Below are positions 39,263-52,937 of a stretch of DNA of 64,000 nt, one piece after another (positions within the stretch are counted from its first letter, which is position 1; each line of letters opens with the position of its first letter). The notes under the pieces are model-generated. The model was not told where the DNA came from. It searched no databases and worked only from the letters and a program-made list of their open reading frames with translations. This DNA is from Planctomycetota bacterium (GTDB taxonomy: Bacteria > Planctomycetota > GCA-002687715 > CAIWVZ01). Position numbers and translations under genes: made by a program. The stretch lies in contig JBGANV010000001.1 in assembly GCA_044222185.1 (NCBI GenBank), positions 2,080,001-2,144,000 of the forward strand, in the 5' to 3' direction.

Positions 39263-39516
39263 GCGCGACAGCCAAAGTGGAAAAACGCGGCGGGGGTGGC
39301 TGGGGCGTTCGGGTATTCGCCAATTGGCGCGAGGGCGGAGTGACGAACGCGGACCTGCGACTGAGGCGGCGGCGGCGAGCGCTGAATCCAATCCGGCACC
39401 CTGGTGCAGTCGATCGACGCCGACTATTCTCCTGCCTCGAAGCGTCGGCACGGTCGCCCGCCACGCTTCTCGACGGCGCCCCACCCGCCGATTTCGCGCG
39501 CGACGTCCCGCTCGCC

Positions 39517-42500
39517 ATGCCAACAAGAAGAAGGTGCACGGTCCCGGTTGGGGTCGTGTTTCTCTGTCTCGTTTCGGTACTGAAGGCGCAGACGACCGTC
39601 ACGTTCCAAGCAGGCGGTGCTGCCGGAACGACGAACACGCTCTGCAGGTCCTGCTACATCAACCAGACTGCGGCCATCACCGGCGGCAGTGCTTGGGTGG
39701 CCGAGTCGAACACGCTCGTCATCCAGAACCAGGGTGGCGTCGGACTCGTCGACTTCCCGGACGTCATCGGCACCGGAAGCGGCCGCATCCCACCAGGCTC
39801 GACGATCACGAGTGCCGTGCTGCAGCTCTACTGCCTCTCGGCAAACGGGACGCTTTCGTCTGCGCGCACCATCACGTGCACCCCGATCAAGGACATGGAC
39901 CGCCTCGGCACCTGGCGTGAGCCCGAGATTCCGACGACCGTCGCGACGGGCGTCGAACAGGGCGTGATGTGGCGCCGCCGCAACCGTTATCGCGACGCAA
40001 GCGGGCAACTGACCGACGACGTGCCGTGGGACCTCGGAACGAGCACCGGGCCGTCACTCGCGAACGACCCGTCGATCGTCGCCGCGTTCCCCACGATCGT
40101 GTCGTCGTTCACGTCGACGCCCTCGTCCGGCACGACCGGGATCAACTTGTTTCACACGTGGAACGTCACGACGGCCGTGAGTTTCTGGGCACAAGGGCTT
40201 CCGAATCAGGGGTTCCACTTGTCCTCGAGCTCGACGCAGGCGTTGAACTACGCCTCGGACGATCACGCGACCGTCGCACAACGTCCCAAACTCGTCGTCA
40301 CGTACGTCCCACCCGGCCCCGGAGTGCAGCCATTCAATCACGTACCCGTTCTCGGCAACGTGGGCGCGCTCAGCACCACCGTCGGCGTCGACATCCCGAT
40401 CATCCTCGCGGCCGCCGACCCCGATCCCACGCCACTCGAGTTCCTCATCACGACGAACCCGCTGAAGGGCACGATCGTCGGGACACCTCCGTACATCACC
40501 TACCGGCCGAATCCCGGCGCGACGGGAGCGGACTCGTTCGCATGGACCGCTCGCGACCAGGTGACGACGGCCTACCCGCAGACCGTCGCGATCAACATCG
40601 CCACGAGCGCCTCGACGGTGACGGCGACCTTCCAGGAGGGCGTCGCGCCAGCGGCGAACCTCGCAGTCGGTGCGACGAAGAACTGCTCGACGGATTTCGT
40701 CGCGGCGCCGGGCCCGCAGCGTTGCATCAACGACATCGAGGTCCGCATCATCCCCGACTATCGCCAGGGCTTCCTCCAGTTCCCCCAACTGATCGGGAGC
40801 GGCGTGGGCCAGGTTCCCGCGGGCTCCAACGTCCTGTCGGCGCGGCTCGAGCTCAAGACGAAAGACATCTGGACGGCCGGTAGCCCGGAGCGCGTCATCC
40901 AGCTCCGCCGGATACTCGACCCGCTGGCCCGCGGAACGTCGTGGACCGAGCCACCGACGCTCACGCCGATCGAGCCCACGGGCTGTACGTCGTGCGCCGT
41001 CTCGTTCAGCTACCCGGACTCCACGCAAACGTCGCAGCCGTGGCACATCCCGGGCGGCGACGTCCACCCCTACGAAGGTTCGAGCTTCACCATCACACCG
41101 ACGGAAAGCGGCCAGATCTGGAAATCGATCGACGTCACGAACGCCGTGCGCGCGTGGGCTTCTGGTGAGCCGAACTTCGGTTGGCAGATCCGGATGCCGA
41201 ATCTGAACGCGAGCGCGAGCGGCATCGTCCTGTGGACCGACGACGCGACGGCGCCCGCCGATCGCCCGCGGTTGAGCGTGAGCTATCGCCCTGCAGGCCC
41301 CCTGGCCGGCGCACCGCCGCACGTGATCGCCGGGCCGGCACAGCTCGTGTTCTCCGACCAGACGGTGACTCTGGACGGGCAAGGAACGACGTACCCCGGT
41401 GGGACGCTCGCCTCGACGATCTGGCTGCAAGTCGCCGGACCTGCCGTCCAGCTCTCTTCCACCTCGTCGATGACGACGACGTTCACGGCGCCCCACGTCG
41501 CGGGCACGAGCAACGTCGAGCTGCGCTTCGTGCTCGGCGTCATCGACAACACGGGTCACTACGCAGCAGACACGGTGCGGATCATCGTGCAACCCCAGCC
41601 CGGCTCGGGGTCGATCCCCTCGCCCACCGTCAGCGCCGGCGCAAATCGAACGGACCCCGAGCTCACGACCGTCACCCTGAACGGCACGGCGTCGGGCGGC
41701 ACCGGCGCGCAGAACCTCAGCGTTCGCTGGACGCAGTTGTCGGGCCCGCACGTCATCATGACCGGGGCGCAGACCCTCACGCCCAGTTTCATCACGCCTC
41801 CGCTCGCCGTTCCGAGCACGCCGCTCGTCTTCGACCTCGCGGTGACGGACGACGGCGTGACACCGCCCCTCGTCTCGGTCGTTCACGACACGATCACCGT
41901 GACCGTGACCAACGCTTTCAATTCGCCGCCCAACCCATCCACCGCCGGCACGCCGTCCACCGTCGAGTCGGGATCGTGGATGGTGCTCGACGGCTCGTCC
42001 AGCACCGACCCGCAAGGTCAAGTGCTTTCCTTCGCCTGGTCGCAGGTGTCGCCGTCCTCGCCGGCTATCCCGCTTTCGGCCTACGTCACTCACCCGTCAG
42101 TCACCGCGGCGCACACTCCGCTGCTCGCGCCGCAGGTGGCAGCGCCGACGGTGTTCACGTTCCACCTCGTGGTGAGCGACGGCGAGCTCTCGGCCTCGAC
42201 GAACGTCTCCGTCACGGTGACGCCGTCGCCTCAGCCGTTCCAAGGCACGAACTCCATGACGCCCTACAGGGACCAGCTCTCACGGGAGGAAGCGCAGCAT
42301 CTGCTCCGCCGGATGGGAACCGGGTGGCACCCCGACGACGTGGCCCAGGTCCGGAGTGCGGGCCTCGCGGCGACCGTAGCCTCCGCGGTCGTGCCGGCCC
42401 CGCGTCTTGTCGGCGGGCAACTGTCGCCAGCGCTCCAGGAAGCACTGTTCTATGCGTCCACGGTCTCGTTCCCGTTCCTGGGGCCGCCCCCGATCTTCAA

Positions 42501-43872
42501 CCCCAGCTTCGATCCCTACGCCCAGTATCTGCCAGAACACGTCACGGCGCAGTGGCTGATCCACGCGTTCCGCACGACGAGCCCGTTGCATGAGCGCATG
42601 TGCCAGTTCTGGCACGATCGGCTCGCAGTCAGCATCGGCAACCTCGTGGACCAGAAGCGGCACTGGGGCCCGATCCACCAGGACATGATCCGGTTCGGCG
42701 CGACCCCCGGTGGCGGCGCGCTGGGCAACTTTCGGACGCTGCTCGTGGACTTCGTTCGCGACCCCGCCTGCCTGGCGTTCATCGATGGTTTCGAGAACTT
42801 CAGCTTCGCGCCCAACGAGAACTTCGCTCGCGAGTTCATGGAGCTGCACACGCTCGGGATCCTCGACATCGCCACGGGACAACCGAACTACACGGAGACC
42901 GACGTCCGTGAGTGCGCACGCGCGTTCACGGGCTATCGACCGACGTGCTACCCGGCGAGCTCGCCGACGCCCACGTGCTACCCGAGCTTCGTGCCGTTCT
43001 TCCACGACACGGGCGTGAAGACGATCCTGGGACAGGTCGGCAACTTCGACGACGCCGGCGTCGTCGACGTCGTTCTCGGTTATGCATCCAACGGGATCCC
43101 GGGCCAGAAGGCGTCGCGATATCTCGCAAAGAACCTCCTCCGCGCGTTCGTCATGGACGCGCCGTCGCTCTCGCTCATCGACGAACTCGCCACGATCATC
43201 CGCTCCAACAACTGGGAGCTGACGCCGGTGATGAGCGCACTGCTCCGTTCCAACGCCATGTTCTCGCCGGCCGCGCGACGGTCGATCGTGAAGAGCCCGG
43301 TGGAGGTGGCACTCGGCATCGTGAAGACGCTGAAGGTGCCGGTGCAGACGCACGACATCGTGGCGCCCTCCTACGAAGGCATCCGGTACAACCTCGCGTT
43401 CATGGGACAGGTCCTCGGTCAGCCCATCGACGTGAACGGATGGCCGTCCGGTCTGGACTGGCTCACCGAGTACTCGATGATCCGGTACATGGAACTCGTC
43501 CGGAGCATGCTGAACCTCGCGCGAGCGCCGACGAATCCGGCGACGCTCACGGGTGCATTCCCCGGCATCCCGCCCACTCCGACGGACATCACGAAGTTCC
43601 TTCCGCCCATCAGCGCGCGCACCGGGACGAACACCGTCGCCTACCTCGCGAAGACGCTCGACGTCGACCTCGCGACCTCACCAGCCAGCGGGGCGTCGTC
43701 CTCCGAGTTCCAGCTCTTCGTCGATTACATCGATCATCAGGCTCTCTACTCGGCGACGGTGCCCTACGTCCTCGGCGGCACGCCCTTCAACGGAGACAAC
43801 CCCAATCACCTCGACAAGCTCTGGAGTACGGTGATGCTCTTCCTCCTCCACCCGGACTTCCAGAAGCTGTAG
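39517..43872 (+). CDS. Large secreted protein: two DNRLRE-like domains, cadherin-like Ig, three PKD-like domains and C-terminal DUF1800
   Basis: ITSAVLQLY...RPKL.V.Y-type unit twice; W.Q..GP PKD-like repeats; DUF1800 motifs HLLRRMG, LHERMCQFWHD, PNENFAREFMELHTLG, YTETDV.ECARAFTG, KSPVE. Confidence 0.88.
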   Translation: MPTRRRCTVPVGVVFLCLVSVLKAQTTVTFQAGGAAGTTNTLCRSCYINQTAAITGGSAWVAESNTLVIQNQGGVGLVDFPDVIGTGSGRIPPGSTITSAVLQLYCLSANGTLSSARTITCTPIKDMDRLGTWREPEIPTTVATGVEQGVMWRRRNRYRDASGQLTDDVPWDLGTSTGPSLANDPSIVAAFPTIVSSFTSTPSSGTTGINLFHTWNVTTAVSFWAQGLPNQGFHLSSSSTQALNYASDDHATVAQRPKLVVTYVPPGPGVQPFNHVPVLGNVGALSTTVGVDIPIILAAADPDPTPLEFLITTNPLKGTIVGTPPYITYRPNPGATGADSFAWTARDQVTTAYPQTVAINIATSASTVTATFQEGVAPAANLAVGATKNCSTDFVAAPGPQRCINDIEVRIIPDYRQGFLQFPQLIGSGVGQVPAGSNVLSARLELKTKDIWTAGSPERVIQLRRILDPLARGTSWTEPPTLTPIEPTGCTSCAVSFSYPDSTQTSQPWHIPGGDVHPYEGSSFTITPTESGQIWKSIDVTNAVRAWASGEPNFGWQIRMPNLNASASGIVLWTDDATAPADRPRLSVSYRPAGPLAGAPPHVIAGPAQLVFSDQTVTLDGQGTTYPGGTLASTIWLQVAGPAVQLSSTSSMTTTFTAPHVAGTSNVELRFVLGVIDNTGHYAADTVRIIVQPQPGSGSIPSPTVSAGANRTDPELTTVTLNGTASGGTGAQNLSVRWTQLSGPHVIMTGAQTLTPSFITPPLAVPSTPLVFDLAVTDDGVTPPLVSVVHDTITVTVTNAFNSPPNPSTAGTPSTVESGSWMVLDGSSSTDPQGQVLSFAWSQVSPSSPAIPLSAYVTHPSVTAAHTPLLAPQVAAPTVFTFHLVVSDGELSASTNVSVTVTPSPQPFQGTNSMTPYRDQLSREEAQHLLRRMGTGWHPDDVAQVRSAGLAATVASAVVPAPRLVGGQLSPALQEALFYASTVSFPFLGPPPIFNPSFDPYAQYLPEHVTAQWLIHAFRTTSPLHERMCQFWHDRLAVSIGNLVDQKRHWGPIHQDMIRFGATPGGGALGNFRTLLVDFVRDPACLAFIDGFENFSFAPNENFAREFMELHTLGILDIATGQPNYTETDVRECARAFTGYRPTCYPASSPTPTCYPSFVPFFHDTGVKTILGQVGNFDDAGVVDVVLGYASNGIPGQKASRYLAKNLLRAFVMDAPSLSLIDELATIIRSNNWELTPVMSALLRSNAMFSPAARRSIVKSPVEVALGIVKTLKVPVQTHDIVAPSYEGIRYNLAFMGQVLGQPIDVNGWPSGLDWLTEYSMIRYMELVRSMLNLARAPTNPATLTGAFPGIPPTPTDITKFLPPISARTGTNTVAYLAKTLDVDLATSPASGASSSEFQLFVDYIDHQALYSATVPYVLGGTPFNGDNPNHLDKLWSTVMLFLLHPDFQKL

Positions 43873-43883
43873 GAGCCAACGTC

Positions 43884-45197
43884 ATGACTCTCTCCCGTCG
43901 AAAGTTCCTCGGTCGAGTCGCCGCCGGCGTCGGCGCTGCGGCCCTGCACCCGATCTTCGCGTCCGCCGCCGCTGCCGCTCCGGCCGTGCGCCGGCCCGGG
44001 CTCAACAATCTCGTTCTGCTCAACCTGGAAGGCGGGCTGGATGGTTTGTCGCTGCTGATCCCGCAGCCGTCGCTCCCGGCCTACGCCACCTACGCAAGCC
44101 GGCGCTCACGGATCATCCCGGATCTGGCTGGGGCACCACGAACGTTGAACGGTGTTCCGGATTACAAGCTGCACCCGTCCCTGAACGTCATCCAGTCCGA
44201 GTTCAACCTGGGCAAGTGCGCCATCGTCCGGAAGGTGGGGAACCCGATCCCCAACTTCTCGCACTTCTCGTCGAAGGACCTGATGTCGCTCGGTCGCAAC
44301 GACCTGAACCACCCGGATCACCGGGGATGGCTCGGGCGGGTTGCCGACGTGCACTTCACATCGGGGCCGCCGACGACGAATGCGCTTCGCATCGTCGGAC
44401 TCGGGGTTCCCCGGCTGTTGGATTTCAACTCGAACGTCGTGCGGCCGGTCGTCATCAACAACCTCAGCAACCTCGTCTCGTTCAACTACGTTTCCGCGAT
44501 GGAGAGCGCCTATCGGAAGGACACGATCCAGCAGATGCTGCCGCAGACGTTCGCGTCTCGAGGCCCCGCCGACGCATCGATCCGTCAACTGATGGCGCAG
44601 GCGACCGCGATGCAGTCACTGCTGGCCCCCGCCCTGAACGTCACGCTGCCGAACGCGGCCTCCTACCCGACGAACGACCTCTTCGCCGGCGCGCTGAAGG
44701 ACATCGCGCGGATGATCGCGCTGAACGTCGGAACGCGCATCTACTACGCCGGGACGTCGCAGTTCGACACGCACATCGGCGAAGAGAATGCGAGCTTGAG
44801 CGCCGGCAGCAAGCCCACGCTCACGATGCGTTTGAATGCCGTCATGCAGGCCCTCTCGGCCTTCGTGGCGGATCTGAAGTCGGCATCGATCGGCGCCTGG
44901 AACCAGACGGCGATCGTGCTCTTCTCCGAGTTCGGCCGTCGCAACTACGACAACGAAGCGGGCGGGACGGACCACGGGTACGGCAGCCACTGCTTCGTGC
45001 TCGGTGGAAGTGTGCTCGGCGGTCTGAAGGGCAACGGCCTCGTCACCGCCGATCTCACGTCGGACAACCTGCCCGTCGAGATCGACATCCGCGCCGTGTA
45101 CAAGGCGTGCCTGGGGAACTGGCTCGGCTTGGACCCCGTGCCGATCTTCGACGACTTCGTCGCCTCACCGCAGCAGCCTGCGTTCCAGTTGTTCTGA
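43884..45197 (+). CDS. Tat-exported DUF1501 protein
   Basis: MTLSRRKFL leader; L.GGLDGLS, SHFSS, FDTH, SEFGRR and GTDHG motifs; SD AGGAG. Confidence 0.9.
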   Translation: MTLSRRKFLGRVAAGVGAAALHPIFASAAAAAPAVRRPGLNNLVLLNLEGGLDGLSLLIPQPSLPAYATYASRRSRIIPDLAGAPRTLNGVPDYKLHPSLNVIQSEFNLGKCAIVRKVGNPIPNFSHFSSKDLMSLGRNDLNHPDHRGWLGRVADVHFTSGPPTTNALRIVGLGVPRLLDFNSNVVRPVVINNLSNLVSFNYVSAMESAYRKDTIQQMLPQTFASRGPADASIRQLMAQATAMQSLLAPALNVTLPNAASYPTNDLFAGALKDIARMIALNVGTRIYYAGTSQFDTHIGEENASLSAGSKPTLTMRLNAVMQALSAFVADLKSASIGAWNQTAIVLFSEFGRRNYDNEAGGTDHGYGSHCFVLGGSVLGGLKGNGLVTADLTSDNLPVEIDIRAVYKACLGNWLGLDPVPIFDDFVASPQQPAFQLF

Positions 45198-46038: not shown

Positions 46039-46857
46039 CTACTTCGCCAGCAGCACGGGGCACGGTGCCAGTTGCAGGAGCTTCTCGCTCACGCTGCCGA
46101 CGAGGAGTCCCTCGAGGAGTCCCAATCCCCGACGCCCCATGACGATCATGTGATGGCCCCCGCGCTTCAGCTCGGCCATGAGCTCCATCGCCGGGTCGCC
46201 CGCGACGTCGCGCGTCGTGACGTTCAGCCCGGCGAGGCCCGCCGCGCCCACGGCGTCTCGGAGGATCGGCTCGGCGGACGGCGCTCCGGGCGACCGCACG
46301 TGCATCGCCACGATCTCCGCCTTGGGGAAGAACGTGTGGGCCGAGCGCAGGGCCCGAACGCTGTGGGACGACCCATCGACGGCCACCAGCACTTTCCGCA
46401 TGGGTCCCAGCGGCGGGTGATTCCCCGTCACCAGCACGGAGCACGGCGCCAGCCGCACGACTTCCGTGCTGACGGTGCCGATGAGGAGCCGCTTCAGCTT
46501 CCCGGCGCCCCGTTGGCCGATCACGATCAGCTCGGCACCGACCTCCAGCGCCTTGTCCAGGATCGTCTCCACGGGGAGCCAGTTGCGGACGTGCTCGAAC
46601 GCGACCAGGCCCCGGGCCCGAAGCGCGTCGGCCGCGTTCTTCAGCATCGCTGACGCCTCTCGGGACGAGGTCGCGATGAGCTGCTCGACCACCTGGGCAC
46701 TGGCGTGGGATGGCACGGCCTGCAGGTGGACGGAGTTGACGAGGTGGACCTCGGCCGGAACGGTCAGCGCGATCTCACTCGCCCAGCCGAGCGCGCATTC
46801 AGCATCCGACGTCTGGTTGTATGCAACGACAATCTTCACGTGGCCGCTCCTTTGCAT
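46039..46857 (-). CDS. Universal stress protein, tandem USP domains
   Basis: KIVVAY, LIVIGQRG...LLIGTVS, KVLVAVDGS, MIVMGRRG...LVGSVSEK...APCPVL. Confidence 0.92.
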   Translation of the reverse strand: MQRSGHVKIVVAYNQTSDAECALGWASEIALTVPAEVHLVNSVHLQAVPSHASAQVVEQLIATSSREASAMLKNAADALRARGLVAFEHVRNWLPVETILDKALEVGAELIVIGQRGAGKLKRLLIGTVSTEVVRLAPCSVLVTGNHPPLGPMRKVLVAVDGSSHSVRALRSAHTFFPKAEIVAMHVRSPGAPSAEPILRDAVGAAGLAGLNVTTRDVAGDPAMELMAELKRGGHHMIVMGRRGLGLLEGLLVGSVSEKLLQLAPCPVLLAK

Positions 46858-47119
46858 CGCATCGCTGTCCGACTCGCGCGGACTGTATTCGCTCGCCGAA
46901 CGCGGTGACACAACCGACGCGCCGCCTACGCAAAATGTCGGGAACGTCGGAGACGGCCGACGGCAGCGCGGAAGCGGGCCGTCGCGTGCACCGCCTGAGC
47001 CTCATGACGCGGTGATTCGACGGTGGATCGGCGGCGCGCCGCTCGATCGGCCGCCCCAGCGCTCAGCCACGAGCCGCACGACGCCGCCGCGCGGGCCGAT
47101 CGGACGGCGCGCCACGCGG

Positions 47120-47135
47120 TACGCACTGTTCCGTA
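47120..47135. promoter_or_regulatory. Candidate NarL-type 7-2-7 operator upstream of the Rieske operon
   Basis: TACGCAC-TG-TTCCGTA imperfect inverted heptamers, 18 nt upstream of a TATAAG hexamer at 47154. Confidence 0.4.
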
Positions 47136-47199
47136 GCTCCTGGCAACACCATGTATAAGAGCGGCCCTCGCACTGGAACAATGACGCGGGAGCCACTTC

Positions 47200-47811
47200 A
47201 TGCAGCACAGCCACGAGCCCAAGCCGAGCCAAGATCCAAGCACTGCTGACCGGCGCACGTTCCTCTCGACGGCCTCGTCCGTCGTCATGGCCGGCGGCCT
47301 TCTCGCGGGTTACGGCACGTTCGCAGGGTTCGCCGCGCGCTACCTCTATCCGGCGAAGCCGACTCCGAAGGGCTGGATGTTCGTGGCGACGACGACGTCG
47401 CTGAAGCCGGGAGAATCGCTGGCCTACAAGACTCCCGCCGGTGCCGCCGTGGCGATCGCTCGCCAGGGCGCGGGCGAAACCGCCGCGGATTTCATCGCGC
47501 TCTCGAGCACGTGTCCTCACCTGGGCTGCCAGGTGCATTGGGAGTCGAAGGACAGCCGCTTCTTCTGCCCGTGCCACAACGGTGCGTTCGACGGGAACGG
47601 CGTCGCCATCGGTGGTCCCCCGAAGGAGGCCGGCCAATCCCTGCCGCGATACCCGCTCAAGGTCGAACACGGGCTCCTGTTCATCGAAGTGCCGACGGGT
47701 CGAGAGATCGCGTCCGCCGATCGACCCGCACGCGAGGCCCCGTGCCGTCCCCGTCGGGACATCCAAGCGTTCGACGGGCCCCTCGGCGACACGACGGAAA
47801 TGCGAGTCTGA
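47200..47811 (+). CDS. qcrA: Rieske [2Fe-2S] subunit of a quinol:cytochrome c oxidoreductase
   Basis: Tat motif DRRTFL plus TM helix; CPHLGC and CPCH boxes; GGPP loop. Confidence 0.92.
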   Translation: MQHSHEPKPSQDPSTADRRTFLSTASSVVMAGGLLAGYGTFAGFAARYLYPAKPTPKGWMFVATTTSLKPGESLAYKTPAGAAVAIARQGAGETAADFIALSSTCPHLGCQVHWESKDSRFFCPCHNGAFDGNGVAIGGPPKEAGQSLPRYPLKVEHGLLFIEVPTGREIASADRPAREAPCRPRRDIQAFDGPLGDTTEMRV

Positions 47812-47814
47812 CCC

Positions 47815-48864
47815 ATGGCGACGATCAAGGCATGGCTTCGTGAGCGCATTCCGCTCGACCCCGCGCAGCTGCGCGAGATCACGAATGAACCCGTCCCCTA
47901 TCACCTGAAACGTTGGTGGTTCTGCCTGGGCGGAACCCCCATGTATCTCTTCGTCGTCCAGATCGTGACGGGGATCCTCCTGGCGTTCTACTACGAGGCG
48001 TCACCGGGTCGCGCCTACGACTCCGTCCGCTTCATCACGGACCACGCGGCCTACGGATGGTTCCTGCGCAGCATGCACAAGTGGGCGGCGACGCTGATGG
48101 TGGCGGCCGTCATCCTCCACCAGATGCGGATCTTCTTCACGGGCGCCTACCGGAAGCCGCGCGAACTCAACTGGATGATCGGCATGTGCCTGCTCTTGTG
48201 CACGCTCGTCGCCGGGTTCACGGGCTACAGCCTCGTGTTCGAGCAGTTGAGTTTCTGGGGCGCGACGGTCGCGGCGAACATCACGGACACGATCCCGGTC
48301 GTCGGTGGGTTGTTGAAGCGCATGCTGCTTGCCGGCGATGCCTACAACGAGCAGACGGTTCCCCGGTTCTTCATCCTTCACGCCGCCGTCCTGCCGGTGA
48401 CGATGACGCTGCTCCTCGCCATTCACATCGGCCTGATCCGGCTCCAGGGAATCACCGAGTTCAAGTTCCGCGACGAACCGGAAGGCAAGCCGCGCATCTT
48501 CGCCTTCTTCCCGGATCACTTCTTCACGGAGCTCATGATCGGGCTCTTCCTGATGATCCTGCTCGGCGCGCTCTCGGTCGTCCTCCCCGCGGACATGGGC
48601 CCCAAGGCCAACCCGCTCGCGACGCCCGAGATCATCAAACCCGAGTGGTACTTCTACGTCGCATTCAGGTGGCTGAAGCTGTTCTCGGGCGTCTTCGCCG
48701 TGCTGAGCATGGGGCTCGTGGTGTTCACGATGTTCCTCTGGCCCTTCATCGACGGCTGGTTCCGCAAGCGTGCGAGATTCGCCGAAGCGAGCGTGTGGAT
48801 CGGGATCGTCGCCGTGTCGCTGATCGTCAGCCTCACGGTCTGGGAAGCCGCGGTCGCGCACTGA
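47815..48864 (+). CDS. qcrB: Cytochrome b (b6-type fused to subunit IV)
   Basis: Four heme His (SMHKW, ILHQM, ILHAA, AIHIG); PRELNW; IKPEWY Qo motif; FCLGG heme-ci Cys motif. Confidence 0.93.
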   Translation: MATIKAWLRERIPLDPAQLREITNEPVPYHLKRWWFCLGGTPMYLFVVQIVTGILLAFYYEASPGRAYDSVRFITDHAAYGWFLRSMHKWAATLMVAAVILHQMRIFFTGAYRKPRELNWMIGMCLLLCTLVAGFTGYSLVFEQLSFWGATVAANITDTIPVVGGLLKRMLLAGDAYNEQTVPRFFILHAAVLPVTMTLLLAIHIGLIRLQGITEFKFRDEPEGKPRIFAFFPDHFFTELMIGLFLMILLGALSVVLPADMGPKANPLATPEIIKPEWYFYVAFRWLKLFSGVFAVLSMGLVVFTMFLWPFIDGWFRKRARFAEASVWIGIVAVSLIVSLTVWEAAVAH

Positions 48865-48891
48865 ACCCCAAACGAATACCGGAGATCGTGA

Positions 48892-50502
48892 ATGTCCCTG
48901 GAAACCAAGCGCTTCGTGATCGGGATCCTCGGCGTCGTGTTCCTCGCGTCGCTGATCTTCGTCCAGTACATGGAGGTGACGCGACGACGCGCGGAGGCCG
49001 GCCTCGATCCCGCCACGATCTCGGTGCCATCGAATTCCAAGCAATGCGTCGATTGCCACAGGCAGTCGAATCCGGCGATCGTGGAACACTGGACTGGCAG
49101 CACGCACGCAGCCAAGGGCGTGGGTTGTTTCGAATGCCACCAGGCCCAGCAAGGCGAAGCGGACGCGTTCGAGCACTACGGCCAGACGATCGCCACCGTC
49201 GTGACGCCGCGGGACTGCTCCCGCTGCCACGACGAGGAGACGAAGCAATTCGCCGCGAGCCATCACTCGAAGGCCGGCGACATCCTGGCGTCCCTCGACA
49301 ACTTCCTCGCCGAGAACGTGGAAGGCATGCGCGGCCGCTTCAACCCGCACTCGCCCACACCGGGCAAGCCGAACGACATGGTCAACGGCATGGCCAGCGT
49401 GAACACGGGCTGCAAGCAATGCCACGGCGGCAAGGTCGGGATGCAGACCGATGATGGCGGCATGGTGACGGTCGACGACCTCAAGCCCGACGAGACCGGC
49501 AAGCCCACGAACAAGGAAGCCGTCGCGAAGATCTTCAAGGATCAAAACGGCAAGCCGCGCCTGCACGCGAGCACGTGGCCCAACACGGGGATCGGCCGCA
49601 TCAACCTGGACGGGTCCCGAGGATCGTGCTCCGCGTGCCACAGCCGTCACGACTTCTCGCCGCGACGCGCACGGCAGCCCGAAAACTGCGGCAAGTGCCA
49701 CCTCGGACCGGACCACCCGCAGGAGGAGATCTACAACGAATCCAAGCACGGCGTCGCCTATCGCGACCTGCGCGACAAGATGAACCTGGACTCGAAGACG
49801 TGGGTCCTCGGCAAGGATTACTCGGCAGCCCCCACCTGCGCCACGTGCCACATGTCCGGGAACACGCGCAACGGGGGCAAGAGCACGCACGACCCGGGTG
49901 AGCGCATCTCGTGGACGAACCGCCCGCCGATCAGTCTCGTGATGGACACGGACGCGAACCACAAAGTCATCACCGAGGCGGATCCGGCCAAACGAGCCGC
50001 GCAGACGGCGGACAACGCGGAAAACAAGCGCACGCGCATGAAGGAGGTCTGCTCGCACTGCCACACGCCCGACTACATCAACGGGTTCTACAAGCAGTAC
50101 GACGACTTCGTGATCCTCTTCAACGAGAAGTTCGCGAAGCCCGGCAAGCAGATCATCGACCTCCTCCGCGCCCAGAACCTCATCACGAAGCCCGACTTCG
50201 ATGAGGAGATCGAGTGGACGTGGTACTTCCTCTGGCACCACGAGGGTCGCCGTGCGCGCCACGGTGCATCCATGATGGCGCCGGACTACGCGCACTGGCA
50301 CGGCATGTACGAGGTCGCGGACCGCTTCTACATGCAGCTCCTCCCTCAAGCGCGTGAGATCGCCAAGCACGCGGCAGAGTCGGGCAAGACGGAACAAGCC
50401 GCGGCGGTGAACGGGCTACTGGATTCGATCCTCGCCCGCCCCGAGCACAAGTGGCTCCCCGACCAGCTCGCGACCCTCAAGCCGACGGCGCCGCCGAAGT
50501 GA
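48892..50502 (+). CDS. Membrane-anchored octaheme cytochrome c, hydroxylamine oxidoreductase (HAO)-like family
   Basis: Eight CxxCH (CVDCH, CFECH, CSRCH, CKQCH, CSACH, CGKCH, CATCH, CSHCH); CHSRHDFS, GPDHPQ.EIY.ESKHG, APTCATCHM and APDYAHWHG; N-terminal TM helix. Confidence 0.9.
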   Translation: MSLETKRFVIGILGVVFLASLIFVQYMEVTRRRAEAGLDPATISVPSNSKQCVDCHRQSNPAIVEHWTGSTHAAKGVGCFECHQAQQGEADAFEHYGQTIATVVTPRDCSRCHDEETKQFAASHHSKAGDILASLDNFLAENVEGMRGRFNPHSPTPGKPNDMVNGMASVNTGCKQCHGGKVGMQTDDGGMVTVDDLKPDETGKPTNKEAVAKIFKDQNGKPRLHASTWPNTGIGRINLDGSRGSCSACHSRHDFSPRRARQPENCGKCHLGPDHPQEEIYNESKHGVAYRDLRDKMNLDSKTWVLGKDYSAAPTCATCHMSGNTRNGGKSTHDPGERISWTNRPPISLVMDTDANHKVITEADPAKRAAQTADNAENKRTRMKEVCSHCHTPDYINGFYKQYDDFVILFNEKFAKPGKQIIDLLRAQNLITKPDFDEEIEWTWYFLWHHEGRRARHGASMMAPDYAHWHGMYEVADRFYMQLLPQAREIAKHAAESGKTEQAAAVNGLLDSILARPEHKWLPDQLATLKPTAPPK

Positions 50503-50706
50503 GGAATTCACCCGCGATTCACCGCGCGGGTGCTCCGGGCTCCGCCCGAATCGACGCCTCGGGTACGCACCGCTGACGCACGCCGATCTGCCGTTGTGCG
50601 TAGAGATCCAATCGCGTCATCGGACGAAACTAAAGACACGTTCGGGCCCCGCAGAGCCCCTTGTGGCGGTGCGATGACCGGGCACCAACGTGTGGTCATG
50701 ATCGAA

Positions 50707-51363
50707 ATGGCGAAGACGACCGTTTACCTGCTGGATGATCAGGCGATGATCCGGGCAGCGTTCCGGCATTGGCTGAGCCAGGCCGACTGGCTCACGATCG
50801 TTGGAGAGCAGGGCAACCCGAGGACCGCGATTCACGAGATCGCGGACATCAAGCCCGACATCGTCCTCCTCGACATCGCCATGCCCGAACTCTCGGGCCT
50901 CGACGCCATCCCGTTGATCCGGGACGTCGCGCCACAGGCGCGCATCGTGATGATGACCAATCACGAGGGCGAGTGCTTCGTTCGCCAGGCCATCGACCGC
51001 GGCGCGAGTGGCTATCTGTGCAAGGACTCCGATCCCGACGAACTCGTGACGGCGCTTCGGGCCGTGCGCGGCGGGACGAGATACGTGTCACCGAAGGCCG
51101 GCGCGCAGAACCCGACGGCTCCGCCAACCACGCATCCCGAGACCCAAGCGGCGAACGGACTCGACGCCCTCACGCCCCGCGAGCGCGAGGTGTTCCTTCT
51201 CCTCGCCATGGGGCGGTCGAACAAGGAAGTCGCGCGCGAGTTCCACATCAGCCTCGGGACGGCCAAGAAGCACCGCGAGAACCTGCAGCGCAAACTGGAC
51301 TGCCATTCGCCCGCGGATCTGGCGCGGCTCGCGATTCGCGAGGGGCTGCTCCCCGCGAAGTGA
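50707..51363 (+). CDS. NarL/LuxR-family response regulator (copy 2, paralog of 38184..38846)
   Basis: Same receiver and HTH motifs; identical C-terminal GTAKKHRENLQRKLDCHSPADLARLAIREGLL. Confidence 0.93.
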   Translation: MAKTTVYLLDDQAMIRAAFRHWLSQADWLTIVGEQGNPRTAIHEIADIKPDIVLLDIAMPELSGLDAIPLIRDVAPQARIVMMTNHEGECFVRQAIDRGASGYLCKDSDPDELVTALRAVRGGTRYVSPKAGAQNPTAPPTTHPETQAANGLDALTPREREVFLLLAMGRSNKEVAREFHISLGTAKKHRENLQRKLDCHSPADLARLAIREGLLPAK

Positions 51364-52293: not shown

Positions 52294-52475
52294 CGGTGAA
52301 CTATACCCCGCCCCATCTCAGCCTGCCCGATCCGGCGCGCAGGCAGGAGGTTGGAGCAGCTACCCACGTCGCCCCCGCACGGGGTGCCCAGGTTCGTAGC
52401 GTCGTCCGAGGACCGCCGAGCGATGATGAAGCCATGGAGCCGCCCCGACGTGCCCGGCTCCGGAAAGGTTCGGCC

Positions 52476-52937
52476 ATGTTCGCGATCAAGAAGATCCTCG
52501 TGCCAACCGATTTCTCGCCCAGTGCACGCGATGCAGTCCTCTACGCCGTGGACCTGGCGAAGACGTTCGGAGCCGACCTCGTGGTGATGCATGCCCTCGA
52601 GCCTGTCCTCGCCTATCCGGTGTACGGCATCGAGACGCCCATCACGATTCCCCAGCAGGACGAGGTGCGAAAGAGCATCGACGTCCAGATGAAGAAGCTG
52701 CTGGAGAACGACATCAAGGGAGCCGTGCGCACGAAGACGCTGGTTCGTGAGGGTCGCGCACCGGTCGAGATCGTCCGCGCCGCCAAGGAAGAGCACGTGG
52801 ACCTGATCGTGATCGGGAGCGCGGGCTACTCCGCGTTCACCTACGCGCTCCTGGGCAGCACGGCCGAAAAGGTCGCGCGCAAGGCGAGCTGCCCCGTCCT
52901 GCTGTACCGCGAGAAGGGTCGGGAGGAGCCTCGGTAG
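52476..52937 (+). CDS. Universal stress protein (single domain)
   Basis: KILVPTDFS, DLIVIGS.G, LLGSTAEKVAR.ASCPVL; SD GAAAGG. Confidence 0.93.
   Translation: MFAIKKILVPTDFSPSARDAVLYAVDLAKTFGADLVVMHALEPVLAYPVYGIETPITIPQQDEVRKSIDVQMKKLLENDIKGAVRTKTLVREGRAPVEIVRAAKEEHVDLIVIGSAGYSAFTYALLGSTAEKVARKASCPVLLYREKGREEPR

What the first reader, a model, noticed from the sequence alone, without database searches (positions are those of the whole stretch)
47200..50502. Rieske/cytochrome b complex whose c-type subunit is an octaheme HAO-like enzyme
Seen: a tight three-gene operon (3-nt and 27-nt gaps) of Tat-Rieske, cytochrome b with PEWY, and a TM-anchored protein with eight CxxCH and HAO-family motifs. 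No c1 or f subunit is present. Established: HAO-family octahemes oxidise hydroxylamine or hydrazine when Tyr-crosslinked, and tend to reduce nitrite or hydroxylamine when not; Rieske/cyt b gene clusters that include an HAO-like gene are known from anammox bacteria. Inference: a minimal quinol-driven nitrogen-oxide reductase coupled to a Q-cycle in a sugar-using heterotroph (ara genes nearby), a possible Nrf-independent route to ammonium. The APDYAHWHG segment suggests Trp near the crosslink position, but I cannot confirm the register by eye.
Basis: partly seen in the sequence, partly recalled or inferred. Interest (0 to 1): 0.8.

Follow-up and report, generated by a model that had tools for sequence, protein, structure and literature searches.

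The report
Rieske/cytochrome b operon with octaheme reductase
Three adjacent genes encode a quinol-oxidising membrane complex whose usual small cytochrome c is replaced by an eight-heme enzyme of the hydroxylamine-oxidoreductase family, probably a nitrite reductase; the module is common, already described from genomes, and never tested biochemically.

Summary
Rieske (47200-47811), cytochrome b (47815-48864) and a membrane-anchored octaheme (48892-50502) form a tight operon.

- **Family.** The octaheme belongs to the HAO family. Its closest solved structure is IhOCC (4qo5), and its closest characterised relative by score is the Nautilia-type epsilon-Hao.
- **Active site.** It keeps the Asp-His pair beside the catalytic heme. 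Where oxidising HAOs have the cross-linking Tyr, it has His468/Trp469.
- **Synteny.** The gene order holds in 62 of 69 related loci with enough upstream DNA, across several phyla.
- **This genome (93.8% complete).** It has narGHJI, two narK-like genes and a qNOR. No NrfA, NirK, NirS, sirohaem nitrite reductase, Hcp or NosZ was found.
- **Phylum sample (301 genomes).** Carriers of the module more often have Nar or Nap (28/47 against 56/254). They rarely have NrfA (4/47 against 76/254).

My best reading, at 0.55, is a quinol:nitrite oxidoreductase coupled to a Q-cycle, most likely forming ammonium. Formation of NO is the main rival.

The idea is not new. The same module was described from the genomes of Nitrospina, Nitrospira, Caldithrix and anammox bacteria. 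This scan has also noted it before on other DNA (24 notes). In the papers I read I found no biochemical test of such a Rieske/cytochrome b-linked module. I class it as a new member of a known kind, of moderate interest.

The parts
47200..47811 (+). Rieske [2Fe-2S] subunit, 203 aa, with a Tat motif (DRRTFL), an N-terminal anchor and the motifs CPHLGC...CPCH
   Evidence: ORF; PF00355 E 4.6e-11; weak sub-threshold hits to b6f, bc1 and arsenite-oxidase Rieske models; translation read
47815..48864 (+). Cytochrome b, 349 aa, a fused b6 + subunit IV type with a KPEWY Qo motif and four His haem ligands
   Evidence: PF00033 4.8e-49, PF13631, PF00032; cytb_ExtP and cytochrome b6 models; H88/H102/H189/H204 and KPEW invariant in 30/30; six or seven hydrophobic segments
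48892..50502 (+). HAO-family octaheme cytochrome c, 536 aa, membrane-anchored, taking the place of cytochrome c1/f
   Evidence: 8 CxxCH; PF13447 2.4e-21; 4qo5 E 4.1e-39 as single sequence and 1.2e-104 as profile; AlphaFold2 pLDDT 92.3, Foldseek 4qo5 E 7.8e-21, TM 0.64/0.66
48898..48996 (+). N-terminal transmembrane helix of the octaheme (residues 3-35)
   Evidence: Helix 3-35 in the model; hydropathy peak at 8-26; column identity 0.72-0.77 across 120 orthologues, about that of the globular part, so a kept anchor rather than a cleaved signal
49411..49425 (+). Fourth haem motif C174-K-Q-C177-H178, the predicted catalytic haem 4
   Evidence: Aligns with the fourth CxxCH of NeHAO in the profile alignment; invariant in 120/120
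49711..49716 (+). Asp274-His275 (GPDHPQ), counterpart of the NeHAO distal pair Asp267/His268
   Evidence: Residue mapping from the printed HMMER alignment; H275 conserved 120/120; motif GPDHPQ conserved. D274 is at least 90% conserved in the wider family; a sister clade has D-Q instead
50287..50301 (+). Y466-A-H468-W469-H470, the segment that aligns with the cross-link loop of NeHAO (W465-T-Y467-T-E)
   Evidence: alignment posterior only about 0.5-0.6 here, so the register is uncertain by one or two residues; Y466, H468, W469 and H470 are 120/120; identical motif in the Nautilia protein P0317; position 466 is Y/F/W/I in the wider family
46039..46911 (-). Tandem universal stress protein, divergent upstream neighbour (context only; not shown to belong)
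   Evidence: PF00582 1.2e-42, two stretches; not conserved next to the module in the 80 related loci
50530..51363 (+). NarL/LuxR-type response regulator 27 nt downstream (context only; a possible regulator, not shown)
   Evidence: PF00072 + PF00196; a relative found in only 8 of 80 loci and not in a fixed place

Best explanation
This is a three-subunit quinol:nitrite oxidoreductase. Quinol, presumably menaquinol, is oxidised at the Qo site (PEWY) of the cytochrome b. One electron passes to the Tat-exported Rieske cluster and from there into the haem chain of the membrane-anchored octaheme, which sits where cytochrome c1 or f normally sits. It ends at the open haem 4, where periplasmic nitrite is reduced, most likely all the way to ammonium. 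In this organism the nitrite would be made by NarGHI and exported by NarK-type carriers, or taken from the sludge. The second electron returns through the two b haems (Q-cycle), so nitrite reduction would add to the proton-motive force, unlike NrfHA. Shown: gene order, family membership, the motifs, synteny and gene-content patterns. Inferred: that the three proteins form one complex, the substrate, the product and the Q-cycle.
For: (1) Anatomy: see the observation check.
(2) The octaheme is of the reductive type. The Asp-His pair is kept and no Tyr lies at the aligned cross-link position. It shares the identical PDYAHWHG motif, at 32% identity and E 3e-69, with the Nautilia protein P0317. Nautilia HaoA is reported to lack the critical Tyr and to be induced 8.5-fold on nitrate (PMC3701875). 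Four epsilon-Haos reduce nitrite and hydroxylamine in vitro, as cited in PMC8042395.
(3) Synteny: 62 of 69 loci, in Planctomycetota, Myxococcota, Krumholzibacteriota, Gemmatimonadales and others.
(4) Own genome: narG scores 1506 bits over a cut-off of 1084, with narHJI and two narK-like genes beside it. No NrfA, no NirK over the cut-off (39), no convincing NirS (40), no NIR_SIR (41) and no Hcp (103). The octaheme is the only PF13447 hit, so it is the only candidate nitrite reductase found.
(5) It is not the housekeeping complex III. Another Rieske/cytochrome b set lies beside the aa3 oxidase genes, and 254 of 301 genomes of the phylum lack the module.
(6) Phylum sample of 301 genomes:
- Nar or Nap: 28/47 carriers against 56/254 non-carriers.
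- NrfA: 4/47 against 76/254.
- Any of NrfA, NirK or NirS: 6/47 against 92/254.
- 16 of the 18 NapA-like genes in carriers lie directly beside the octaheme gene.
(7) Only 18 of 46 other carriers have a qNOR-like gene, which argues against NO as the obligatory product.
(8) In the 80 loci, a NapA-like gene lies directly downstream in 16, an Rrf2 regulator is present in 8 and an outer-membrane barrel in 8.
(9) RNA-library contigs with 0-1 mismatches cover parts of all three genes in runs of three studies.
Against: - There is no biochemical evidence for this or any Rieske/cytochrome b-linked HAO-like protein in the papers read (PMC6311188, PMC12485887, PMC5317091).
- 19 of 47 carriers have no Nar or Nap detected.
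- 7 of 69 loci lack Rieske/cytochrome b upstream.
- The solved reductive relative HAOr makes NO from nitrite with a mild electron donor (PMC8042395), and this genome does carry a qNOR.
- The genome counts are not corrected for relatedness, and the carrier threshold (E <= 1e-170) was set after seeing the score gap.
- The alignment around the cross-link position is of moderate confidence, and an invariant Tyr466 lies two residues away.
- Five-coordination of haem 4 was not tested: 14 invariant non-motif His exist, so counting cannot exclude a sixth ligand.
- Rieske/cytochrome b complexes are dimers and HAO-family enzymes trimers (the latter stated for oxidative HAOs in PMC8042395). How the two would fit together is unexplained.
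- AlphaFold3 gave no reasonable model for the Kuenenia complex with Kuste4574 (PMC12954380).
- The RNA contigs cannot exclude DNA carry-over.
Confidence: 0.55

Rival explanations
1. The complex is the same, but the octaheme stops after one electron. It would be an NO-forming nitrite reductase, as proposed for Kuenenia HAOr and Kuste4574. The NO is then taken by the genome's qNOR, giving a truncated denitrification that ends at N2O.
For: HAOr, which lacks the Tyr cross-link, made only NO with phenazine ethosulfate/ascorbate (PMC8042395). Kuste4574 in a Rieske/cytochrome b complex is proposed to make NO (PMC12485887). This genome has a qNOR (PF22085 + COX1) and no NosZ. Electrons leaving a Rieske centre are at high potential (303 and 335 mV measured for two Kuenenia Rieske proteins, PMC12954380); by my inference this favours the one-electron step.
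Against: 28 of 46 other carriers show no qNOR-like gene with this query. The module is scarce where NrfA is present (4/47 against 76/254), the pattern expected of an NrfA substitute. NirK and NirS are too rare in the sample to test. By score the protein is nearer to epsilon-Hao (224.6 bits) and IhOCC (138 bits) than to HAOr (85.7 bits). Epsilon-Haos are reported to reduce nitrite and hydroxylamine, and IhOCC is called an octaheme nitrite reductase; the papers I read do not name their product. Caldithrix, with a comparable locus and no NrfA, is proposed to reduce nitrite to ammonia through its epsilon-Hao (PMC5317091).
Confidence: 0.2
2. The octaheme is mainly an electron-transfer subunit. It would be a c1 substitute that hands electrons from the Rieske protein to other periplasmic acceptors, such as NapA through a tetrahaem or oxidases, with no catalysis of its own that matters.
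For: A NapA-like gene lies directly downstream in 16 of 80 loci, followed by a small tetrahaem in 7, and in 16 of 47 carriers of the phylum sample. The Caldithrix paper proposes that the Rieske/cytochrome b pair may feed NapM and NapA (PMC5317091). Seven of the eight haems are wire haems in this family (PMC8042395 abstract).
Against: This genome has no NapA-like gene at E <= 1e-120, and NarGHI has its own quinol site. The Asp-His pair and the whole distal-pocket segment are invariant in 120 orthologues, and residues 241-350 are the most conserved part (0.91). That is hard to explain for a plain wire. A separate Rieske/cytochrome b set serves the oxidase.
Confidence: 0.1
3. It is a defence enzyme: quinol-driven removal of hydroxylamine or NO (nitrosative stress) in nitrifying and denitrifying sludge, not a respiratory nitrite reductase.
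For: HAO-like reductases also reduce NO and hydroxylamine (PMC8042395). Rrf2-family regulators, the family of the NO sensor NsrR (a recalled link), lie beside the module in 8 of 80 loci. USP genes and a NarL-type regulator flank it here. 19 of 47 carriers lack Nar and Nap. The organism comes from bioreactor or activated-sludge samples.
Against: It is linked with nitrate reductases in gene content and position and scarce where NrfA is present. A three-subunit Q-cycle machine is a costly way to detoxify.
Confidence: 0.1
4. It is an oxidative HAO that feeds electrons from hydroxylamine or hydrazine into the chain.
For: HAO-family fold. An invariant Tyr466 lies two residues from the aligned cross-link position, and the local alignment confidence is only moderate.
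Against: The same PDY motif occurs in the Nautilia protein P0317; Nautilia HaoA is described as lacking the critical tyrosine (PMC3701875), and epsilon-Haos show negligible hydroxylamine oxidation (cited in PMC8042395). Position 466 varies (Y/F/W/I) in the wider family. Rieske/cytochrome b complexes oxidise quinol. No ammonia monooxygenase or hydrazine synthase context was seen in the window; the rest of the genome was not searched for them.
Confidence: 0.02

Closest known systems
Genome-predicted Rieske/cytochrome b + octaheme (OCC, 'ONR', epsilon-Hao) clusters of Nitrospina gracilis, Nitrospira moscoviensis/japonica and Caldithrix abyssi
   Same: The same gene set and the same idea. A Rieske/cytochrome b pair has an atypical octaheme as its only c-type partner (PMC3578206). 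[quoted passage not shown] In Caldithrix, Rieske/cytochrome b may feed epsilon-Hao directly and the organism has no NrfA (PMC5317091).
   Different: Nitrospina has a split cytochrome b; here it is fused. In Caldithrix the genes sit inside a nap operon; here the three genes stand alone and the nitrate reductase is NarGHI elsewhere in the genome. I could not fetch those named sequences, so orthology with them was not tested.
Epsilon-Hao (HaoA) of Nautilia profundicola and other Campylobacterota
   Same: Reductive HAO type. The cluster of P0203 holds the Nautilia profundicola AmH protein ACM93230.1: 32% identity over 470 aa, E 3e-69, with identical HHEGRR.RHGA...PDYAHWHG and GPDHP motifs. It is the best-scoring characterised relative (224.6 bits). 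It is induced on nitrate and lacks the critical Tyr (PMC3701875).
   Different: Nautilia HaoA is proposed to be fed by a NapC/NrfH-type tetrahaem CycB, not by Rieske/cytochrome b. In the quick tree the Nautilia cluster falls outside the 28-row clade that holds the query. That ACM93230.1 is locus NAMH_1280 is my assumption.
IhOCC of Ignicoccus hospitalis (PDB 4QO5)
   Same: Closest solved structure: phmmer E 4.1e-39, profile E 1.2e-104 over the full length, Foldseek E 7.8e-21 and TM 0.64/0.66. It is called an octaheme nitrite reductase with a penta-coordinated haem in the C-terminal module and no P460 (PMC9250108).
   Different: Only 23% identity in the structural alignment. IhOCC is archaeal. 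It has W/T/T where the query has Y466/A/H468. I found no Rieske/cytochrome b partner described for it in the passages read. The original structure paper was not seen.
Kuenenia stuttgartiensis Rieske/cytochrome b complex Kuste4569-4574
   Same: A Rieske/cytochrome b complex with an HAO-like octaheme proposed to reduce nitrite. All its subunits co-migrate experimentally (PMC12954380). Its activity is untested (PMC12485887).
   Different: The Kuenenia complex also has a hexa- or octaheme c subunit and an NAD(P) oxidoreductase, with split b6/SUIV. None of these is present here. In the anammox-like family of the phylum sample the best matches are at most about 55% identical, and the two I inspected in G031 stand alone, away from any Rieske/cytochrome b genes. 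Kuste4574 itself was not compared.
NrfHA, cytochrome c nitrite reductase
   Same: The likely function is the same, quinol to nitrite to ammonium in the periplasm. The two are nearly mutually exclusive in the sample: NrfA in 4/47 carriers against 76/254 non-carriers.
   Different: It is a different family (pentahaem, Lys-ligated catalytic haem). NrfA models match only weakly (E 0.0097). The quinol dehydrogenase NrfH is not a Q-cycle machine (established knowledge, recalled).
Nitrosomonas europaea HAO (1FGJ, 4FAS)
   Same: Same fold and the same eight-haem frame; the Asp-His pair is kept.
   Different: NeHAO Tyr467 (cross-link) aligns with His468, and NeHAO Tyr334 with Arg344. NeHAO has no membrane anchor and no Rieske/cytochrome b partner (recalled).

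Membership tests
HAO family of octaheme cytochromes c (PF13447) | Eight CxxCH motifs in the family's order and spacing | tested here: met
   8 motifs, invariant in 120/120 orthologues; PF13447 76.6 bits over a cut-off of 21.9; profile alignment to 4qo5 over the full length
HAO family of octaheme cytochromes c (PF13447) | HAO fold including the long C-terminal helices | tested here: met
   AlphaFold2 pLDDT 92.3, helices 393-427, 439-460 and 464-496; Foldseek top ten hits are all HAO-family chains with probability 1.00
HAO family of octaheme cytochromes c (PF13447) | Five-coordinate catalytic haem 4 with a distal Asp-His pair | tested here: inconclusive
   D274/H275 align with NeHAO D267/H268 and are conserved. 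Coordination itself cannot be read from sequence, and the model carries no haems
Oxidative HAO/HDH (P460 enzymes) | Tyr that cross-links to haem 4 of the neighbouring subunit | tested here: not met
   NeHAO Y467 aligns with H468 (W469 if anchored on the Pro). The motif is identical to that of the Nautilia protein P0317; Nautilia HaoA is reported to lack the critical Tyr. Caveat: the alignment posterior is about 0.5-0.6 and Y466 lies two residues away
Reductive epsilon-Hao-type enzymes | Nitrite and hydroxylamine reductase activity with negligible hydroxylamine oxidation | not testable with these tools
   Activity is known only for relatives (cited in PMC8042395)
Reductive epsilon-Hao-type enzymes | Membership of the Campylobacterota epsilon-Hao clade | tested here: not met
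   In the quick tree the Nautilia cluster lies outside the 28-row clade that holds the query (SH-aLRT 94). The tree was unfinished and midpoint-rooted
Rieske/cytochrome b (bc/b6f-type) complexes | Rieske protein with CxH...CxxH cluster ligands and export by Tat | tested here: met
   PF00355; CPHLGC, CPCH and DRRTFL read
Rieske/cytochrome b (bc/b6f-type) complexes | Cytochrome b with four His ligands for two b haems and a PEWY Qo motif | tested here: met
   H88, H102, H189, H204 and KPEW invariant in 30/30
Rieske/cytochrome b (bc/b6f-type) complexes | Membrane-anchored c-type subunit that binds the complex | tested here: inconclusive
   The anchor helix is present and conserved and synteny is 62/69. 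The complex prediction could not be run
Anammox composite complex (Kuste4569-4574 type) | NAD(P) oxidoreductase subunit and an extra hexa- or octaheme subunit in the operon | tested here: not met
   Only three genes are present; the flanks are a USP gene and a response regulator

The most novel reading that the evidence does not exclude
The Rieske/cytochrome b-octaheme module is a widespread, energy-conserving ammonifying nitrite reductase that stands in for NrfHA. It occurs in about one in six sampled Planctomycetota (47 of 301) and in at least 401 species genomes across several phyla. If so, surveys of nitrate ammonification that count only nrfA and onr (PMC10716430 used IhOCC and HAO as negatives) miss a sizeable guild. 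Nitrite reduction would then be coupled to a Q-cycle, a coupling that NrfHA is not known to have (recalled).
Probability: 0.35. Interest if true: 0.7.

Novelty: new member of a known kind. Interest (0 to 1): 0.42.

Why it matters
If the module works as inferred, it is a second common route from nitrite to ammonium. That route would retain nitrogen in soils, sediments and treatment plants, and marker-gene surveys based on nrfA and onr would not see it. It would also conserve more energy per nitrite than NrfHA.

For this organism it gives a concrete and testable prediction. Nitrate respiration through NarGHI would be followed by periplasmic nitrite reduction by this complex, because no other nitrite reductase was found.

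The structural question is also open: how would a trimeric HAO-type enzyme dock on a dimeric Rieske/cytochrome b core?

The finding itself is one more instance of a module already described from genomes and already met many times in this scan.

Tried and rejected
- **Complex prediction (cytochrome b + octaheme).** The job was accepted and lost on the remote machine. The queue was full again, and the tool was declared unavailable. There is no result, so binding remains inferred from synteny.
- **Promoter scan, 46800-50800.** No sigma-70-like promoter was found, and 2 terminator-like sites against 2.4 expected. I saw no FNR-like box by eye in 46880-47200.
- **Assigning each distal His to a haem.** I could not do this from sequence. 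The C-terminal helix region aligns NeHAO H454/H459 with R456/M461 of the query, so the register there is doubtful.
- **Looking for the Kuste4574 counterpart.** In an anammox-like genome (G031) the two best HAO-like hits are stand-alone genes: one is 42% identical with a signal peptide, the other is an IhOCC-like paralogue at 31%. The search scored only 4 of 26 candidates, so the counterpart may simply have been missed.
- **Tree.** Only the quick search finished. Many forks are open and long branches meet, so it is used only for coarse placement.
- **RNA evidence.** All runs are assembled contigs with small shares of the stretch (0.07-0.12). Parts without cover, and the absence of a laid silent control stretch, mean that expression is only hinted at.
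- **Housekeeping complex III.** Rejected: another Rieske/cytochrome b set lies beside the aa3 oxidase genes.
- **A 'reverse-HURM' route with free hydroxylamine passed to Hcp.** Not supported here: no Prismane/Hcp hit in the genome.

Full report
**What is there.** On the + strand lie three ORFs: 47200-47811 (203 aa), 47815-48864 (349 aa) and 48892-50502 (536 aa). The gaps between them are 3 and 27 nt.
- The first is a Rieske protein (PF00355, E 4.6e-11). It has a twin-arginine motif and the cluster motifs CPHLGC and CPCH.
- The second is a cytochrome b of the fused b6 + subunit IV kind (PF00033 4.8e-49, PF00032 1.9e-09). The four haem-ligand histidines and KPEW are invariant in 30 of 30 aligned orthologues.
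- The third has exactly eight CxxCH motifs, all invariant in 120 of 120 orthologues. It matches PF13447. It also has one N-terminal transmembrane helix, whose sequence is about as conserved as the globular part. That fits a retained anchor, not a cleaved signal.

No c1 or f gene is present. The neighbours are a tandem USP gene, a NarL/LuxR-type response regulator, an EEP-family protein and a second USP gene.

**What the octaheme is.**
- By sequence, the closest solved chain is 4qo5 (E 4.1e-39). It is followed by the Kuenenia reducing HAO-like protein 6h5l (3e-23) and Nitrosomonas HAO (1.5e-18).
- A profile of 29 family members matches 4qo5 over its full length (E 1.2e-104) and NeHAO at 8e-51.
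- The AlphaFold2 model is confident (pLDDT 92.3, pTM 0.85). Foldseek ranks 4qo5 first (E 7.8e-21, TM 0.64/0.66), followed only by HAO-family chains.
- Among relatives with any functional study, the best score belongs to the cluster of P0203 (224.6 bits). That cluster contains a Nautilia profundicola AmH protein and Caminibacter proteins.
- BLASTP against the Nautilia protein gives 32% identity over 470 residues, E 3e-69.
- In a quick, unfinished tree the query's orthologues form a tight group (SH-aLRT 95). Its sister is a small clade in which the Asp-His pair reads Asp-Gln. The Nautilia and IhOCC-like sequences branch elsewhere.

The protein is therefore a distinct branch of the reductive HAO-like radiation. 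It is not an epsilon-Hao in the narrow sense.

**The cross-link question.** I mapped residues from the printed profile alignment to NeHAO.
- NeHAO Asp267/His268 fall on Asp274/His275 (GPDHPQ).
- NeHAO Tyr334 falls on Arg344.
- The cross-linking Tyr467 (NPGGWTY467TEG) falls on His468 of P-D-Y466-A-H468-W469-H470-G. If the segment is anchored on the proline instead, it falls on Trp469.

The alignment posterior in this segment is only about 0.5-0.6, and an invariant Tyr466 lies two residues upstream. Sequence alone cannot close the point. Three observations argue that Tyr466 is not a cross-linker.
- The Nautilia protein has the identical PDYAHWHG motif. Nautilia HaoA is described as lacking the critical tyrosine (PMC3701875, passages read).
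- Four epsilon-Haos had negligible hydroxylamine-oxidising activity (cited in PMC8042395, passages read).
- In the wider family, position 466 is Y, F, W or I.

I recall, but did not see, a paper by Haase and co-workers (2017) that places a Trp at the cross-link position in epsilon-Hao. Whether haem 4 is five-coordinate could not be tested. There are 14 invariant non-motif histidines, so counting settles nothing. The conserved Asp-His pair is the positive hint.

**How common it is, and how fixed.**
- More than 7,998 clusters at 90% identity match the octaheme, and the best 120 are 70-75% identical to it.
- In the 50%-identity library, 1,930 proteins match at E <= 0.001.
- A scan of one genome per species found 401 stretches encoding a relative. 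The best 80 (62-75% identity) carry titles of Planctomycetota (most), Myxococcota/Polyangia, Krumholzibacteriota, Omnitrophica, Thermoanaerobaculia, Gemmatimonadales and others.
- Of the 69 loci with at least 1,700 nt upstream, 60 have Rieske and cytochrome b directly upstream by strict criteria. Two more have them with overlapping genes. Seven have neither.
- Nine of the 11 loci with a short upstream part end inside a cytochrome b gene.
- Eight loci show a variant with a shorter, b6-like cytochrome b (about 50% identity) and about 800 nt more before the octaheme gene.
- Among the exceptions, some octahemes have a signal-peptide-like start or lack the anchor, and one keeps the anchor without Rieske/cytochrome b nearby.
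- Recurrent neighbours in the 80 loci are a NapA-like molybdoenzyme directly downstream (16), a small tetrahaem after it (7), an Rrf2 regulator (8), an Alginate_exp-type outer-membrane barrel (8) and MobB (4).

**This genome.** The window lies in a 7.08 Mb, 16-contig genome, 93.8% complete. DNA runs holding the stretch are labelled bioreactor or activated-sludge metagenomes.
- It has four cytochrome b genes: the one here, two in a multihaem cluster about 60 kb upstream of the window, and one beside aa3 oxidase genes. The module is therefore not the housekeeping complex III.
- It has narG (1506 bits, cut-off 1084), with narH, narJ, narI and two narK-like genes beside it.
- It has a qNOR (PF22085 + COX1).
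- I found no NrfA (best hit 20.9 bits, under the cut-off), no NirK over the cut-off, only weak propeller hits for NirS, no sirohaem nitrite/sulfite reductase domain, no NosZ and no Hcp.
- The octaheme is the only PF13447 hit.

Absence in a 94%-complete genome is not proof. As it stands, though, the octaheme is the only candidate for removing the nitrite that NarGHI would make.

**Gene-content pattern in the phylum.** I searched the same 301 genomes, G000 included, with six queries. I defined carriers as genomes with an octaheme match at E <= 1e-170. I chose this threshold after seeing a gap between 1e-178 and 1e-134. That gives 47 carriers.

| Feature | Carriers | Non-carriers |
|---|---|---|
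| NarG | 16/47 | 27/254 |
| NapA-like | 18/47 | 36/254 |
| Nar or Nap | 28/47 | 56/254 |
| NrfA family | 4/47 | 76/254 |
| NirK | 1/47 | 9/254 |
| NirS | 1/47 | 14/254 |

- Sixteen of the 18 NapA-like genes in carriers lie directly next to the octaheme gene (coordinates).
- Of the 84 genomes with a nitrate reductase, 23 have only this module as a candidate nitrite reductase, 29 have only a conventional one, 5 have both and 27 have neither. Of those 27, 16 have another HAO-like gene.
- Naive Fisher tests give odds ratios of 5.2 (Nar or Nap) and 0.22 (NrfA). Relatives are not independent, so these overstate.
- Counting by hand at genus level gives about 25 of 38 carrier genera with Nar or Nap, and 4 of 38 with NrfA.
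- A qNOR-like gene was found in 18 of 46 other carriers.

**Reading.** The module goes with nitrate reductases, is scarce where NrfA is present, and mostly does without an NO reductase. This is the pattern expected of an ammonium-forming nitrite reductase fed from the quinol pool. The proposed path is quinol, Qo site, Rieske cluster, haem chain of the anchored octaheme, haem 4 and nitrite. The second electron cycles through the b haems.

The main rival is a one-electron reduction to NO, as shown for Kuenenia HAOr with a mild donor (PMC8042395) and proposed for Kuste4574 (PMC12485887). This genome's qNOR and the high potential of Rieske centres fit that rival. Minor rivals are a pure electron hub for Nap, which does not apply here because no NapA-like gene was found, and a detoxifying role.

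**Expression.** Contigs from libraries recorded as RNA, in three studies, match parts of the locus with 0-1 mismatches:
- the Rieske gene (47270-47420 and 47522-47672);
- the end of cytochrome b (48666-48882);
- the octaheme gene (49149-49299, 50071-50221 and 50203-50356);
- the regulator and both USP genes.

This is a hint only. DNA carry-over cannot be excluded, and contigs show neither strand nor level.

**What is known already.**
- Luecker et al. 2013 note, for Nitrospina, a Rieske/split-cytochrome b operon whose only c-type partner is an atypical octaheme. They report the same structure in Kuenenia and Methylomirabilis (PMC3578206, passages).
- A 2018 review states that the Nitrospira OCC is co-localised with a Rieske/cytochrome b pair and probably reduces nitrite to ammonia. 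It also says the OCC replaces NirA and lacks biochemical characterisation (PMC6311188, passages).
- Kublanov et al. 2017 propose, for Caldithrix, that Rieske/cytochrome b feeds epsilon-Hao directly or through NapM and makes the process electrogenic (PMC5317091, passages).
- For Kuenenia, all subunits of Kuste4569-4574 co-migrate, and AlphaFold3 gave no reasonable model including Kuste4574 (PMC12954380, passages).
- A million-genome survey of ammonifiers used only nrfA and onr, and treated IhOCC and HAO as negatives (PMC10716430, passages).

My literature searches turned up no biochemical study of a Rieske/cytochrome b-linked HAO-like enzyme. Subscription journals are largely outside the library. 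Earlier notes of this scan describe the same module on other DNA many times: 24 notes in at least 21 genomes.

**Verdict.** It is a new member of a known, genome-predicted kind.
- the residue mapping of the cross-link and distal-pocket positions;
- the finding that this genome has NarGHI but no other recognisable nitrite reductase;
- the gene-content pattern that favours an NrfA-like role over an NO-forming one.

The physical complex, the substrate and the product remain untested.

Noticed in passing
G000:C1:2010001-2028000 (locus L006), about 52-70 kb upstream of the window start: A second respiratory cluster holds a Tat-Rieske gene, two cytochrome b genes and six multihaem cytochromes with 4, 9, 9, 11, 13 and 16 CxxCH motifs. 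It may be an extracellular or metal-directed electron-transfer system.
   Followed up: partly
G000:C14:483001-497000 (locus L007): The likely housekeeping Rieske/split cytochrome b set lies next to aa3-type oxidase genes. Its c-type partner is a 1107-aa protein with 8 CxxCH and weak hits to monohaem class I cytochrome c models.
   Followed up: partly
G000:C6:144001-164000 (locus L103): narGHJI with two narK-like genes. Directly beside them lie a small multihaem cytochrome (cytochrome c7/c3-type hits) and a 703-aa protein with a Tat signal, which may be an alternative-complex-III-like module. A 280-aa cytochrome c lies upstream of narG.
   Followed up: partly
G000:C6:197944-199221 (locus L088): A formate-dehydrogenase-like molybdoenzyme is read through one in-frame TGA, so it is a selenocysteine candidate.
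   Followed up: no
window 47923-47925 (Cys37 of cytochrome b): A Cys in WWFCLGG sits where b6-type cytochromes bind the extra haem ci (a recalled link). It is Cys in 17 and Ala in 13 of 30 orthologues, so a fourth haem, if any, is not universal in this module.
   Followed up: partly
window 46039-46911 (-), 50530-51363 (+), 52296-52937 (+): Two USP genes and a NarL/LuxR-type response regulator frame the operon. This recalls hypoxia and NO regulons (a recalled analogy with DosR). The arrangement is not conserved in the related loci.
   Followed up: partly
Genomes G176, G179, G248, G265, G278: Octaheme orthologues in five genomes of the phylum sample contain one in-frame stop (TGA, TAA, TGA, TAG, TAA). 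These may be broken genes, sequencing errors or, for TGA, something else.
   Followed up: no
Loci L014, L038, L043, L048, L054, L058, L066, L075: A variant of the module has a shorter, b6-like cytochrome b (47-53% identity) and about 700-1300 nt more before the octaheme gene, presumably a separate subunit IV. Upstream, five of these loci carry a TPR/4Fe-4S protein and four of those a beta-eliminating lyase (L043 has its lyase downstream).
   Followed up: partly
window 39277-45197: A 1531-aa DUF1800 protein with PKD and Ig domains is followed by a Tat-signal DUF1501 protein. I recall this pair as typical of planctomycetes.
   Followed up: no
Whole complex (concept): Rieske/cytochrome b cores are dimers and HAO-family enzymes trimers. 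Each octaheme chain here has its own membrane anchor. I found no explanation of how the symmetries are matched.
   Followed up: no
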